This document shows, piece by piece, positions 2,103 through 5,670 of a DNA stretch of 64,000 nucleotides. Below the pieces are notes generated by a model. The model was not told the DNA's origin. It was given only the letters and a program-made list of their open reading frames with translations, and searched no databases. The translations under genes were made by a program, and so were the position numbers. Source of the DNA: the human T2T-CHM13v2.0 reference genome, Homo sapiens. Location of the stretch: the NCBI RefSeq assembly GCF_009914755.1, contig NC_060945.1, one strand, 5' to 3'. Position 1 is the first letter of the stretch, and every line of letters begins with the position of its first letter.

Positions 2103-2553
2103 TTAAATTTTCTTTCTAGAAGTTTGAAAATATTTATCTTCCTTGATTCTTACTACTGTTTCTGCTTTCTGTCTCTCATATTGAAAGAGACTTTCTTTTA
2201 AATGATCATATTCATTCATTAGCTTCTTATTTTTCTCTTCTAGTATGAGGTCTTTCTTTCTACTCTCAATAAAGCCTCTTTGGATATTAATTACTATCTC
2301 TTTATGATCCTCTTTCTGATGAACATCAATTAGTTGCTGTTCAAGCCATGGATTTTCACGTTGGAGTTGACATATCCTCTCTTCCACACAGTTCCACTTT
2401 CCAGTAGATTTACTGACTTTAGCTTCTGCACTTTGATACATCTCTTTCATTTCCTTTATTTGCTGCTGTGTTTGGCTTAGGTCGTTTTGTACAGTTTCTA
2501 AAGCTAATGACTTTTTTCTGAGAGTATCTCTTGTCTTACGGAACTTATCTTTT
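2103..2553 (-). pseudogene. ANKRD20A: ANKRD20A-like exon 15, 3' half
   Basis: Resumes in frame after the TSD: KDKFRKTRDTLRKKSLALETVQNDLSQTQQQIKEMKEMYQ...QTSRKKI*. Confidence 0.9.
2541..2553. repeat. TSD of the RHOT1-SVA insertion (3' copy)
   Basis: GAACTTATCTTTT, identical to 5658-5670. Confidence 0.95.
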
Positions 2554-5123
2554 TTTTTTCTTGTACCTTTTTTTTTTTAATGTTTATTGATCATTCTTGG
2601 GTGTTTCTTGGAGAGGGGGATGTGACAGGGTCATAGGATAATAGTGGAGAGAAGGTCAGCAGAGAAACATGTGAACAAAGGTCTCTGGTTTTCCTAGGCA
2701 GTGTTTGTGTCCCTGGGTACTTGAGATTAGGGAGTGGTGATGACTCTTAACGAGCCCGCTGCCTTCAAGCATCTGTTTAAGAAAGCACATCTTGCACCAC
2801 CCTTAATCCATTTAACCCTGAGTTGACACAGTACATGTTTCAGAGAGCACGTGGTTGGGGGTAAGGTTATAGATTAACAGCATCCCAAGGCAGAAGAATT
2901 TTTCTAAGTGCAGAACAAAATGGAGTCTCCTATGTCTACTTCTTTCTACACAGACACAGTAACAATCTGATCGCTCTTTCTTTTCCCCACATTTCCCCCT
3001 TTTCTTTTGAACAAATCCGCCATCGTCATCATGGCCCGTTCTCGATGGTTGCTGTCTCTTTGGAGCTGTTGGGTACACCTCCCAGATGGGGCGGCCGGGT
3101 AGAGGCGCTCCTCACTTCCCAGACAGGGCGGCGGGGCAGAGGCGCTTCTCACATCCCAGACGATGGGTGGCCGGGCAGAAACGCTCCTCACTTCCCAGAC
3201 GGGGCGGCCAGGCAGAGACGCTCCTCACTTCCCAGATGGGGCGGCTGGGCAGAGGCACTCCCCACTTCCCAGATGGGGTGGCCGGGCAGAGGCGCTCCTC
3301 ACTTCCCAGATGGAGCGGCCGGGGAGAGGCACTCCCCACTTCCCAGACTATGGGCGGCCAGGCAGAGGCGCTCCCCACTTCCCAGGTGGGGCGGCCAGGC
3401 AGAGGTGCTTCTCACTTCCCAGACGGGGTGGCCGGGCAGAGGCACTCCCCACTTCCCAGACTATGGGCGGCCGGGCAGAGGTGCTTCTCACAACCCAGAT
3501 GGGGTGGCCGGGCAGAGGCACTCCCCACTTCCCAGATGGGGCGGCCGGGCAGAGGCGCTCCACACTTCCCAGATGGGGCGGCTGGGCAGAGGCACTCCTC
3601 ACTTCCCAGATGATGGGCGGCCAGGCAGAGGGGCTCCTCACCTCCCAGATGGGGTGGCCAGGCAGAGATGCTCCTCTCTTCCAAGATGGGGCAGCCAGGC
3701 AGAGGTGCTCCTCATCTCCCAGACGGGGTGGTGGCTGGGCAGAGGTGCTCCTCACATCCAAGATGGGGCGTCTGGGCAGAGGTGCTCCTCACTTCCCAGA
3801 CGATGGGCGGCCGGGCAGAGGTGCTCCTCAATTCCCAGATGGGGTGGCCAGGCAAAGATGCTCCTCACCTCCCAGATGGCGTGGCTGGGCAGAGGCACTC
3901 CTCACTTCCTCCCAGATGGGGCGGCCGGGCAGAGGTGCTCCCCACTTCCCAGACGGGGCGGCCGGGCAGAGGCGCTCCTCACCTCCCAGACGGGGCGGCC
4001 GGGCAGAGGCGCTCCTCACCTCCCAGATGGGGCAGCCAGGCAGAGGCACTCCTCACCTCCCAGATGGGGCGGCCGGGCAGAGGCACTCCTCACCTCCCAG
4101 ACAGGGTGGCTGGGCAGAGACGCTCCTCACTTCCCAGATGATGGGTGGCCGGGCAGAGGTGCTCCTCACTTCCCAGATGGGGTGGCTGGGCAGAGGCACT
4201 CCTCACTTCCTCCCAGACGGGGTGGCCGGGCAGAAGTGCTCCTCACTTCCCAGACCGGGCAGCCAGGCAGAGGCACTCCTCACCTCCCAGACGGGGTGGC
4301 CGGGCAGAGGCGCTCCTCACTTCCCAGATGGGACAGCCTGGCAGAGGTGCTCCCCACATCCCAGACGGGGCGGCTGGGCAGAGGCGCTCCTCACTTCCTA
4401 AACAGGGTGGCGGCCGGGCAGAGGTGCTCCTCACTTCCCAGACAGGGCAGCCGGGCAGATGCGCTCCTCACTTCCCAGACAGGGCAGCCGGGCAGAGGTG
4501 CTCCTCACTTCCTAGATGGGGTGGTGGCCAGGCAGAGGCGCTCCTCACTTCCCACATGGGGCAGCTGGGCAGAGGCGCTCCCCACATCCCAGACGGGGCG
4601 GTCGGGCAGAGGTGCTCCTCACTTCCCATTCGGGGCAGCCGGGCAGAGGCGCTCCTCACTTCCTCCCAGACGTGGGGCGGCCGGGCAGTGGTGCTCCTCA
4701 CCTCCCAGATGGGGCAGCCGGGCAGAGGCGCTCCTCACTTCCCAGACGATGGGAGGCCGGGCAGAGTCTCTCCTCACATCCCAGACAGGGCAGCCAGACA
4801 GAGGCGCTCCTCACATCCCAGAGGATGGGCGGTCAGGCAGAGACGCTCCTCACTTCCTAGACGGGGTGGCGGCTGGGCAGAGGTGCTCCTTACTTCCCAG
4901 ATGGGGCGGCCAGGCAGAGGTGTTCCTCACTTCCTATTCGGGGCGGCTGGGCAGAGGGGCTCCTCACATCCCAGATGATGGGTGGCCAGGCAGAGACGCT
5001 GCTCACTTTGTAGACGGGGTGGCGGGTGGGCAGAGGCTGTAATCTTAGCACTTTGGGAGGCCAAGGCAGGCAGCTGGGAGGTGAAGGTTGTAGCGAGCCG
5101 AGATCCCGCCACTGCACTCCAGC
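2554..5123 (-). mobile_element. SVA retrotransposon, 5'-truncated at its Alu-like splice acceptor; probably an early (SVA_A-like) subfamily
   Basis: Minus strand: GCTGGAGTGCAGTGGC Alu-like remnant (5123-5040), ~2 kb GC-rich VNTR, HERV-K-derived SINE-R (~3070-2579), AATAAA (2588-2583) and poly(A). No CCCTCT hexamer. Confidence 0.95.
3070..5040. repeat. SVA VNTR, ~50 units of 36-41 bp
   Basis: Repeated GGGCAGAGGCGCTCCTCACTTCCCAGA(C/T)GGGGCGGCC with CpG decay. Confidence 0.95.
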
Positions 5124-5452
5124 CTGCTGTCTTTGTCTGTTCTTTCATTTATGAGAGGAATCCATCGACTTGTTACCTTATCAATAGAATGCTTGTTGTT
5201 AACAGCATACACTATACAGATGATATTAGCCTGAGATATTTCTTGATGAAGTTGTTCATTACTCTGTTCTGCTTCTGAGTAATCTACAATGTGTGTTGGA
5301 ACTCTCTCTGGGGTGACATCAGCTGGAATGGTGATTTCTTCTGCCCGGGGAGGAACCTCTTCTGGAAATTCTTCACTGACCAGAGACATAATCATTGATG
5401 TCTTCCCAACTCTAGGTTCTCCCACCAGCAGGATCCACACGTCTTTCTTCAT
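5045..5452 (-). CDS. Open chimeric ORF, 135 aa: Miro1 N-GTPase fragment + SVA-derived tail; translation unproven
   Basis: GCCGCCGACATG start, no stop or frameshift through the RHOT1/SVA junction; tail [25 protein letters not shown]. Confidence 0.35.
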
Positions 5453-5657
5453 GTCGGCGGCTCTCGGGGGCCAGCCTCCGCCCGCACGTATGGAGTGGAC
5501 TCCTCTCACCAGGAGCACCCACCCCACGGCGCCACCTGCCAGCCTCTTCGGCTGCCAGGGCCCGCCGCGCTGCCCCCTCAGTTGCTTCCCCGCAAGAGAG
5601 CCGGGACAGCACCAGCTCCGCTTCCTCCAGCCCAGCAGGCTGCAGCGGCGGCGGCCA
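5124..5657 (-). pseudogene. RHOT1: Processed 5' fragment of RHOT1 (Miro1) mRNA: 5'UTR + codons 1-110, carried by the SVA
   Basis: Intronless [110 protein letters not shown], preceded by a GC-rich 5'UTR. Confidence 0.95.
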
Positions 5658-5670
5658 GAACTTATCTTTT
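5658..5670. repeat. TSD of the RHOT1-SVA insertion (5' copy); L1 endonuclease site TTT/AAAA
   Basis: Minus strand ACTTT^AAAAGATAAGTTC. Confidence 0.95.

What the first reader, a model, noticed from the sequence alone, without database searches (positions are those of the whole stretch)
2541..5670. Exon-trapping SVA: spliced RHOT1 mRNA fused to an SVA and inserted into a coding exon
Seen: one insertion bounded by a perfect 13-bp TSD at a TTT/AAAA site. It holds 534 nt of intronless RHOT1 (5'UTR + 329 coding nt) joined at ...GACAGCAG|GCTGGAGTGCAGTGG to an SVA lacking its hexamer and most of its Alu-like domain. Removing the insertion restores the host frame ([15 protein letters not shown]). Knowledge: GCTGGAGTGCAGTGG follows the known AG acceptor in the SVA Alu-like region, as I recall the one also used by MAST2 in SVA_F1, and from memory RHOT1 has an exon boundary at this phase-2 position. 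So an intronic SVA trapped RHOT1 exons and L1 machinery mobilised the chimera. I recall this event being described before, so it is striking rather than novel.
Basis: partly seen in the sequence, partly recalled or inferred. Interest (0 to 1): 0.8.

Follow-up and report, generated by a model that had tools for sequence, protein, structure and literature searches.

The report
RHOT1 exons trapped by an SVA
This is one old retrotransposed copy of a hybrid RNA, the first six exons of the RHOT1 gene spliced onto an SVA mobile element that still sits in RHOT1 intron 6, and it is a clear but already published example.

Summary
A 3,104-bp insertion (window 2554-5657, minus strand) lies between perfect 13-bp target-site duplications (2541-2553, 5658-5670).

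- **Structure:** 534 nt of intronless RHOT1 (205 nt of 5'UTR plus 329 coding nt), then about 115 nt of SVA Alu-like sequence, a 1.9-kb VNTR, the SINE-R part, AATAAA and an A-tail.
- **Splicing:** In the same genome the RHOT1 part matches six exons on chr17, with five GT..AG introns removed. It ends exactly at the exon-6 donor.
- **Source:** RHOT1 intron 6 still carries a sense-oriented SVA with its own duplication and an AG acceptor exactly at the junction. It shares a rare 22-nt deletion and an odd interrupted tail with the window copy.
- **Spread:** Copies on chr13 and chr18 have the same duplication and flanks, so there was one insertion, later spread by segmental duplication. All 24 close paralogues checked are empty sites.
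- **Host:** A CCDC144C-type coiled-coil exon of an ANKRD20A-like pseudogene, now carrying a premature stop.

The event is in print as the "RHOT1 transduction group" (2009 papers, cited in PMC9132208), so it is well supported but not new.

The parts
5658..5670 (-). Target-site duplication, 5' copy in element orientation (AAAAGATAAGTTC on the minus strand)
   Evidence: exact 13-mer, only two copies in the window, 0 expected by chance. Same 13-mer at both ends of the chr18 and chr13 copies.
5453..5657 (-). RHOT1 5'UTR (205 nt, CpG-rich), part of exon 1. The first 2 nt (TG) do not match the parent gene.
   Evidence: matches C17:33088254-33088493 from query position 3.
5124..5452 (-). RHOT1 coding sequence, 329 nt (109 codons + 2 nt), from exons 1-6. 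Exon joins in the window fall at 5416|5415, 5357|5356, 5275|5274, 5231|5230 and 5177|5176.
   Evidence: GT..AG at all five introns in the chr17 gene; Miro1 residues 1-109; exon 6 ends CAGCAG|gtattt.
5009..5123 (-). Remaining 3' part of the SVA Alu-like region, starting directly after the AG acceptor. The border with the VNTR is approximate.
   Evidence: collinear with L012:2377 onward in the intron-6 SVA, where it is preceded by ...gttgcccag.
3076..5008 (-). SVA VNTR, 37-nt unit, about 51 copies
   Evidence: TRF score 2188. The distance between the two anchor motifs that bracket the array is 1,948 nt here and 1,534 nt in the intron-6 SVA. Whole inserts are 3,104 / 3,858 / 2,490 bp in the chr21 / chr18 / chr13 copies.
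2579..3075 (-). SINE-R-derived 3' part of the SVA, with a lineage-specific 22-nt deletion and AATAAA at 2588-2583
   Evidence: best non-self match in the genome is the RHOT1 intron-6 SVA (95%, 831 bits). The 22-nt deletion is shared by 4 of 4 lineage members and absent from 8 of 8 other SVAs.
2554..2578 (-). Interrupted poly(A) tail: A11-GGTACAAG-A6, running into the four A's of the TSD
   Evidence: The same interruption is in the intron-6 SVA (A10-GTACAAG-A11) and in the chr13 copy; it is degenerate in the chr18 copy.
2541..2553 (-). Target-site duplication, 3' copy
5671..6194 (-). Host exon, upstream half: CCDC144C-type coiled-coil reading frame of an ANKRD20A-like pseudogene, with an in-frame TAG at 5720-5718
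   Evidence: frame; PF14915, E 3e-43, profile positions 110-267.
2103..2540 (-). Host exon, downstream half, same frame
   Evidence: (PF14915, E 3.8e-39, profile positions 289-430). Overlaps the first annotated exon (1983-2195) of LOC110091776 in the table given with the finding.

Best explanation
An SVA retrotransposon inserted, in sense orientation, into intron 6 of RHOT1 on chr17 and is still there. A transcript that started at the RHOT1 promoter was spliced normally through exons 1-6. The exon-6 donor was then joined to a cryptic AG acceptor in the 3' part of the SVA's Alu-like region, not to exon 7. The RNA was polyadenylated at the SVA's own AATAAA.

L1 proteins copied this chimeric RNA once into a TTTT/AA site inside the CCDC144C-type coiled-coil exon of an ANKRD20A-like gene copy. 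That produced a 13-bp target-site duplication. The segment carrying the insertion was afterwards copied by segmental duplication to what are now pericentromeric chr21, chr13 and chr18.

Shown: the intronless exons, the donor and acceptor at the junction, the related SVA in the intron, the shared TSD, and the empty paralogous sites. Inferred: the order of events, the dating, and that L1 was the enzyme (from the TSD, the target site and the A-tail).
For: 1. Spliced RHOT1. The 534 nt match six chr17 exons at 95-100%. All five introns are bounded by GT..AG and are precisely absent from the copy.

2. Donor. Exon 6 ends ...GACAGCAG|gtattttt at C17:33121982, which is the last RHOT1 base of the chimera.

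3. Acceptor and source.
- An SVA lies at C17:33123970-33126434, on the same strand as RHOT1. Its own 14-bp TSD is GAAATAATAAATGC. It sits between exon 6 and exon 7, which starts at 33128526. A further RHOT1 exon lies at 33139749.
- The source reads ...gttgcccag|GCCGGAGTGCAGTGG, where the chimera has CAGCAG|GCTGGAGTGCAGTGG.

4. Same lineage.
- The SINE-R plus tail of the window copy has the intron-6 SVA as its best non-self match (831 bits). That is ahead of its own duplicates (830 and 803 bits) and of every other scored SVA (at most 772 bits) (40 of 2,397 candidates were scored).
- All 4 lineage members share a 22-nt deletion, 3 substitutions and the (G)GTACAAG interruption of the tail. These are absent from 8 of 8 other SVAs.
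- At 6 of the 7 sites where the three copies agree against the intron copy, the copies keep the state seen in all 8 other SVAs. That fits later private changes in the source.

5. L1 hallmarks: perfect 13-bp TSD, a TTTT/AA-type target, AATAAA and an A-tail.

6. One event. The chr18 and chr13 copies have the identical TSD at both ends and the same flanks. All 24 paralogous loci at 91-94% identity are empty, with a single copy of the target; 23 of the 24 have the exact 13-mer.

7. The acceptor is used repeatedly. Two other SVAs join a foreign sequence to the same GCTGGAGTGCAGTGG. In both, the parent locus ends at a GT donor...ggaaag|gtggga at chr1:151116948, and ...aataag|gtgagt at chr5:77461605 on the minus strand.

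8. Literature: the passage in PMC9132208.
Against: - The boundary is formally ambiguous over 4 nt. RHOT1 exon 7 also begins GCTG, as does the SVA sequence after the acceptor. The junction alone therefore cannot exclude a join 4 nt into exon 7.
- Only 40 of 2,397 SVA candidates were scored, so an unscored SVA elsewhere could be closer than the intron-6 copy.
- The intron-6 SVA now reads GCC where the copies read GCT just after the acceptor, and it has other private changes. Identity with the source is therefore inferred from shared rare features, not from sequence identity.
- Substitution distance alone does not set the lineage clearly apart from other SVAs: 2.9-5.8% within the lineage against 2.8-5.3% to the others.
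- Neither 2009 primary paper could be read, so I could not check that their 'RHOT1 transduction group' is described at these loci.
Confidence: 0.95

Rival explanations
1. Template switching or microhomology-mediated joining. During reverse transcription of an SVA RNA, the L1 reverse transcriptase jumped to an ordinary RHOT1 mRNA at the 4-nt GCTG shared by exon 7 and the SVA, in the way U6/L1 chimeric retrocopies form. No splicing into the SVA would be needed.
For: Exon 7 starts GCTGCC and the SVA after the junction starts GCTGGA, so 4 nt are shared.
Against: - The switch would have to land by chance within 4 nt of an exon-exon junction in RHOT1, and directly after an AG in the SVA.
- The SVA would have to belong by chance to the lineage that sits in the very intron following that exon.
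- The same SVA position is joined to GT-donor-bounded sequences from two other loci.
Confidence: 0.02
2. Two independent insertions: a 5' fragment of a RHOT1 processed pseudogene, and a separate 5'-truncated SVA that landed next to or inside it.
For: RefSeq lists RHOT1P2 (5120-5652) as a plain pseudogene and names no SVA (table given with the finding).
Against: - There is no poly(A) and no second TSD between the parts.
- A single 13-bp TSD brackets the whole element.
- The RHOT1 part stops at an internal exon donor, not at an mRNA 3' end.
- The empty paralogues lack both parts together.
Confidence: 0.01
3. The exon-trapping model is right but the source was a different SVA. The SVA now in RHOT1 intron 6 would be a sibling, and the true source would have been lost or lie elsewhere in the intron.
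For: - Only 40 of 2,397 candidates were scored.
- The intron copy differs from the retrocopies at 15-26 of 520 aligned SINE-R positions.
Against: - The position, orientation, AG acceptor, 22-nt deletion, 3 substitutions and tail interruption all fit.
- Almost all differences that separate it from the three copies are private to the intron copy.
Confidence: 0.05

Closest known systems
RHOT1 transduction group of SVA elements (Damert et al. 2009; Hancks et al. 2009, as cited in PMC9132208)
   Same: An SVA carrying RHOT1 sequence at its 5' end and multiplied together with segmental duplications. The cited passage says exactly this. Here, three copies share one TSD.
   Different: Nothing found. 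The two primary papers are not held, so I could not compare their coordinates, their copy number, or whether they named the intron-6 source element.
SVA_F1 (MAST2 exon 1 spliced onto SVA_F)
   Same: The mechanism is the same. An upstream exon with a CpG-island promoter is joined at its GT donor to an AG acceptor in the 3' part of the Alu-like region, with loss of the hexamer and most of the Alu-like region. MAST2 exon 1 ends GGAGCAG|gtaggg, and the F1 junction is GGAGCAG|CCGCCTGCC.
   Different: - The acceptor differs. The F1 site is 50 nt 3' of the RHOT1 site in 3 of 3 F1 junctions examined.
- F1 captured one exon; the RHOT1 chimera captured six.
- F1 went on to retrotranspose many times: 80 candidate loci, and all 39 scored non-self matches end at the same exon base with varied 5' ends. 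The RHOT1 chimera shows one retrotransposition and was copied only at the DNA level.
Ordinary processed pseudogene (the RefSeq label RHOT1P2)
   Same: Intronless copy of an mRNA, made by L1, with a TSD.
   Different: It holds only exons 1-6. It has no RHOT1 3' end or poly(A) of its own, and its 3' end and poly(A) signal are those of the SVA.
Other 5'-transduced SVAs that use the same acceptor (chr2:74132022; chr17:44303953 in this genome)
   Same: A foreign sequence ending at a GT donor in its parent locus is joined to GCTGGAGTGCAGTGG.
   Different: The donor loci differ (chr1:151.1 Mb and chr5:77.46 Mb). I did not check their TSDs or whether they are described in print.

Membership tests
SVA retrotransposon | 5' (CCCTCT)n hexamer repeat | tested here: not met
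   Absent from the window copy, where RHOT1 sequence takes its place. It is short and degenerate in the intron-6 source. Its absence is expected for a copy spliced at an internal acceptor.
SVA retrotransposon | Alu-like region (antisense Alu fragments) | tested here: met
   Only the 3' part is present, about 115 nt (5123-5009). It is collinear with the intron-6 SVA and with three SVA_F1 elements.
SVA retrotransposon | GC-rich VNTR of 35-50-nt units | tested here: met
   37-nt unit, 51 copies, 3076-5008.
SVA retrotransposon | SINE-R 3' part, AATAAA, poly(A), TSD | tested here: met
   The 522-nt 3' part finds 2,397 candidate loci in the genome, with 85-95% identity among the 39 non-self loci scored. 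The name 'SINE-R' for this part is from recall; no repeat library was available.
SVA subfamily (A-F) | Diagnostic positions of the subfamily consensus | not testable with these tools
   No RepeatMasker, Dfam or Repbase here. The subfamily is left open.
Exon-trapping / 5'-transducing SVA | The 5' non-SVA part ends at an annotated or canonical splice donor of the parent gene | tested here: met
Exon-trapping / 5'-transducing SVA | The SVA part begins directly after an AG in the full-length element | tested here: met
Exon-trapping / 5'-transducing SVA | Sense-oriented SVA in the intron downstream of the trapped exon | tested here: met
Exon-trapping / 5'-transducing SVA | The chimera itself acted as a source element (copies with different TSDs) | tested here: not met
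   3 of 3 copies share one TSD and the same flanks. No other copy was found among the 7 candidates, all scored.
SVA_F1 | MAST2 exon 1 at the 5' end | tested here: not met
   The 5' end is RHOT1.
SVA_F1 | Junction at the F1 acceptor (...CCCAG|CCGCCTGCC) | tested here: not met
   The RHOT1 junction lies 50 nt upstream of it.
RHOT1 transduction group (literature) | RHOT1-derived 5' sequence on an SVA, amplified with segmental duplications | tested here: met
   The definition is taken from one cited passage; the primary papers were not seen.

The most novel reading that the evidence does not exclude
The trap may still be working. The intron-6 SVA keeps its AG acceptor and its AATAAA, so RHOT1 may still make an exon 6-SVA transcript. 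In the window copy, the ORF that starts at the RHOT1 ATG runs 136 codons. It covers Miro1 residues 1-109, stops short of the GNKSD motif encoded in exon 7, and continues for 27 SVA-derived residues.

The three retrocopies also carried a RHOT1 CpG-island promoter into ANKRD20A-type pseudogenes. There it could drive transcripts such as LOC110091776, whose first annotated exon starts 346 bp downstream of the SVA tail.
Probability: 0.25. Interest if true: 0.3.

Novelty: already known. Interest (0 to 1): 0.2.

Why it matters
- **A complete example.** This is an unusually complete case of exon trapping by an SVA. The donor, the acceptor, the source element still in place, the empty target sites and the later DNA-level copies can all be read from one genome.
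- **Annotation.** RHOT1P2 is the 5' part of an SVA chimera, not a free-standing processed pseudogene. It interrupts an unannotated exon of an ANKRD20A-like pseudogene.
- **Two acceptors.** SVAs offer at least two distinct acceptors 50 nt apart. One was used with RHOT1 and with two other loci; the other was used with MAST2.
- **Value.** None of this changes current understanding. The finding works as a worked example and a positive control for the scan.

Tried and rejected
- **A short 3' transduction from RHOT1 intron 6.** The GGTACAAG that interrupts the tail resembles aaaaggtacaagaag about 50 nt into the intron. I considered that the source SVA had sat there. Rejected: the real intron-6 SVA, 2 kb further on, has the same interruption inside its own tail, before its own TSD, and no 3' flank of that SVA is carried along. 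The resemblance is chance.
- **Two independent insertions, and template switching.** See the rival explanations.
- **A fourth copy.** A pattern hit at chr13:23801692 has AGCAG before the motif, but it continues as an ordinary Alu. It is not a RHOT1 copy.
- **Primary literature.** PMC2775593, PMC2775590, PMC2945828 and PMC3486173 are not held. What those papers say comes only from a citing passage and from my recall.
  - Searches for 'RHOT1'+'SVA' (27 papers, 20 listed), 'RHOT1P1/2/3' (4 papers) and 'RHOT1'+'transduction'+'retrotransposon' (7 papers) were seen as listings only.
  - I opened passages of PMC9132208, PMC5007689, PMC6139936 and PMC3287187.
  - The supplement of PMC5007689 may list which RHOT1-SVA copies are transcribed in K562.
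- **SVA subfamily.** No repeat library was available, so it was not assigned.
- **Dating.** Only rough. SINE-R distances (1.8-4.2% at non-CpG sites) and flank distances (1.4-1.7%) disagree about two-fold.
- **Ape genomes** are not held, so presence or absence in other species was not tested.
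Full report
**What is in the window**

Read on the minus strand, window 5670 to 2541 contains the following, in order:
- a 13-bp repeat, AAAAGATAAGTTC;
- 534 nt of GC-rich and then coding sequence;
- about 115 nt of antisense-Alu-like sequence;
- a 1.9-kb tandem array of 37-nt units (51 copies, TRF score 2188);
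- about 500 nt of unique sequence ending in AATAAA, then an A-tail interrupted by GGTACAAG;
- the same 13-bp repeat again.

The 13-mer occurs only at these two places in the 64-kb window, and none of 100 shuffles produced a match. The base before the first copy makes the target ...TTT|AAAA..., which is a TTTT/AA-type site on the opposite strand. This is the usual L1 endonuclease site (established knowledge, not tested here).

**The 5' part is spliced RHOT1**

The own genome (T2T-CHM13) could be searched. The 534 nt match six separate stretches on chr17, at 33088254-33121982 on the plus strand, at 95-100% identity. The remaining non-self matches are two full-length copies on chr18 and chr13, so all 7 candidates are accounted for.

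At each of the five gaps the chr17 sequence has GT...AG, and the retrocopy joins the exons precisely. The last exon ends ...GACAAAGACAGCAG|gtattttt. The RHOT1 part therefore stops exactly at the exon-6 donor, in phase 2.

The 109 complete codons match Mitochondrial Rho GTPase 1 (PDB 9e2p_A, 6d71_A) over residues 1-109, at E 4e-65, with four substitutions. Pfam calls them Ras family. The ORF runs on for 27 SVA-derived codons and stops.

**The source SVA is still in intron 6**

A BLAST of the element against the 20 kb downstream of exon 6 found an SVA on the same strand. It lies at C17:33123970-33126434 and is flanked by its own 14-bp duplication, GAAATAATAAATGC.

Exon 7 (...LPLILVGNKSDL...) starts at 33128526, preceded by ttttag. 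A Miro-specific EF_assoc_2 exon follows at 33139749. The SVA is therefore in intron 6.

In this SVA the sequence ...caatgctcagtgttgcccag|GCCGGAGTGCAGTGGTGGGATCTCGGCTCGCTACAACC... has an AG directly before the point at which the chimera's SVA part begins (GCTGGAGTGCAGTGGCGGGATCTCGG...). Splicing exon 6 to this site removes 2,293 nt, 33121983-33124275.

**Evidence that it is the same lineage**

- The window's SINE-R plus tail has the intron-6 SVA as its best non-self match (831 bits, 95%). Its own duplicates score 830 and 803 bits, and every other scored SVA scores at most 772 bits. Only 40 of 2,397 candidates were scored.
- I aligned the four lineage members with the eight best other SVAs. All four share a 22-nt deletion, three substitutions and the interrupted tail, and none of the eight others does. 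One of the eight has a different, shorter overlapping deletion.
- At 6 of the 7 columns where the three retrocopies agree against the intron copy, the retrocopies keep the state of all eight other SVAs. These look like later private changes in the source.
- Plain substitution distance does not separate the lineage from other SVAs (2.9-5.8% within, 2.8-5.3% to the others). The argument rests on the rare shared characters and on the location.

**One insertion, spread as DNA**

The chr18 and chr13 copies have the identical 13-bp duplication at both ends and the same flanks. Their insert lengths are 3,858 and 2,490 bp, against 3,104 bp here. Most of that difference appears to lie in the VNTR, judging from the overlapping repeat alignments. 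The chr13 copy also lacks 43 nt of the RHOT1 5'UTR and 2 nt of its coding part.

The host flank has 27 matches at 91% identity or more, including the three filled copies, and 13 at 68-79% (40 of 47 candidates scored). I examined 30 loci:
- In the 3 filled loci, the downstream flank lay outside the stored ±1.5 kb.
- All 24 loci at 91-94% are empty sites, with the two flanks adjoining a single copy of the target. 23 of the 24 have the exact 13-mer and one has a single mismatch.
- The 3 distant loci (77-81%) are also uninterrupted.

Non-CpG divergence of about 3.3 kb of flank among the three filled copies is 1.44-1.70%. From recalled figures this is somewhat above genome-wide human-chimpanzee divergence and near human-gorilla. 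I therefore infer that duplication happened around or before the gorilla split and that the insertion came earlier. This is rough. The RHOT1 part differs from its parent by 3.6-4.9% overall and by 1.4-2.2% at non-CpG sites. SINE-R distances are about twice the flank distances.

**The host**

Both flanks translate in one frame and match PF14915 (CCDC144C coiled-coil region). Profile positions 110-267 lie upstream (E 3e-43) and 289-430 downstream (E 3.8e-39).

In this copy there is a TAG 16 codons upstream of the insertion, at 5720-5718. The chr13 copy also has one stop in the stretch (I did not compare its position), and the chr18 copy is frameshifted. Six empty paralogues, five on chr9 and one on chr2, keep the upstream frame open and share the same terminal stop.

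So the site is a coding exon in intact family members. Whether the recipient copy was still coding at the time of insertion cannot be told. The supplied RefSeq table has no exon at the site. The first exon of LOC110091776 (1983-2195) lies within the downstream half.

**Comparison with SVA_F1, tested here**

- I located the MAST2 region on chr1 through its DUF1908 exons. About 200 kb upstream I found a single CpG island in 40 kb.
- Searching the genome with that island gave 80 candidate loci. All 39 scored non-self matches end at the same base, with 5' ends that vary up to 382 nt. This fits the SVA-F1 description in PMC5007689, '36 to 382' nucleotides (passage).
- The exon ends GGAGCAG|gtagggcgg.
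- In 3 of 3 F1 junctions fetched, it is joined to CCGCCTGCCTTGGCC..., directly after ...CACCTCCCAG in a full SVA. That acceptor is 50 nt downstream of the one used with RHOT1.

**The RHOT1 acceptor is used elsewhere**

I ran a pattern for the motif preceded by non-canonical bases. It gave 11 hits, and none with the reversed-pattern control. My reading of the 11 hits:
- 2 are the chr21 and chr18 RHOT1 copies. The chr13 copy does not match the exact pattern.
- 3 are Alus.
- 4 are SVAs with internal deletions ending at this site. Three of these read GGTTTTT|GCTGGAG.
- 2 join foreign sequence to the site, at chr2:74132022 and chr17:44303953.

For both foreign junctions the best other match in the genome ends at the junction and is followed by a GT donor: ggaaag|gtggga on chr1, and aataag|gtgagt on chr5. 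Three unrelated donors joined to one SVA position is what a real splice acceptor predicts.

**Rivals**

- A join by template switching at the 4-nt GCTG shared by exon 7 and the SVA cannot be excluded from the junction alone. It would, however, need several coincidences: the exon boundary, the AG, and the same SVA lineage in the same intron.
- Two independent insertions are contradicted by the single duplication, the lack of an internal poly(A), the internal exon end, and empty sites that lack both parts.

**Status in print**

[quoted passage not shown] 2009; Hancks et al. 2009...)'. [quoted passage not shown] The 2009 papers themselves are not held, and the supplement of PMC5007689 could not be opened.

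**Verdict**

The element is already known, so interest is low.

Noticed in passing
G000 chr2:74132022 (L057) and chr17:44303953 (L064); parent loci chr1:151116847-151116948 (L074) and chr5:77461605-77461750 minus strand (L075): Two other SVAs join foreign sequence to the same acceptor as RHOT1 (…AG|GCTGGAGTGCAGTGG). In both, the parent locus ends at a GT donor exactly at the junction. I did not check TSDs, gene identity or prior description.
   Followed up: partly
G000 chr1:44987487 (L056), chr10:9276345 (L060), chr16:93790183 (L063); also chr2:202921714 (L058): SVAs with an internal deletion in the Alu-like region that ends at the same acceptor. Three read ...GACTGGTTTTT|GCTGGAGTG and one reads ...GGGATTGCAG|GCTGGAGTG. 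These look like intra-element splicing or recombination variants.
   Followed up: no
window 5718-5720 (minus strand): In-frame TAG in the host CCDC144C-type exon, 16 codons upstream of the insertion. The chr13 copy also has one stop in the stretch and the chr18 copy is frameshifted. Six empty paralogues are open.
   Followed up: partly
window 1983-2195 versus 2554: The first annotated exon of the transcribed pseudogene LOC110091776 begins inside the interrupted host exon, 346 bp downstream of the SVA tail. The insertion carries a RHOT1 CpG-island promoter and may influence where this transcript starts. Not testable here.
   Followed up: no
L012:137-151 (C17, about 50 nt into RHOT1 intron 6) versus window 2560-2570: The tail interruption AAAGGTACAAGAA resembles intron sequence just after exon 6. 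This was shown to be chance, because the intron-6 SVA carries the same interruption within its own tail.
   Followed up: yes
window 5656-5657; chr13 copy 5' end: The first two bases after the TSD (TG in chr21 and chr18, CG in chr13) do not match the (GCC)n of the parent 5'UTR. They may be untemplated or cap-derived bases at the 5' junction.
   Followed up: no
window 36558-36664 (minus strand): Full-length U6 snRNA match (64.4 bits, model positions 1-105), as annotated (RNU6-954P). It was the only Rfam hit in the window.
   Followed up: no
one search hit list: The host exon is 91-94% identical to about two dozen pericentromeric and acrocentric paralogues, but only about 76-77% identical to the chr9:33.57 Mb and chr9:38.62 Mb loci. 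From recall those are where ANKRD18B and ANKRD18A lie. The RefSeq label 'ANKRD18B pseudogene' therefore seems less apt than ANKRD20A-like.
   Followed up: no
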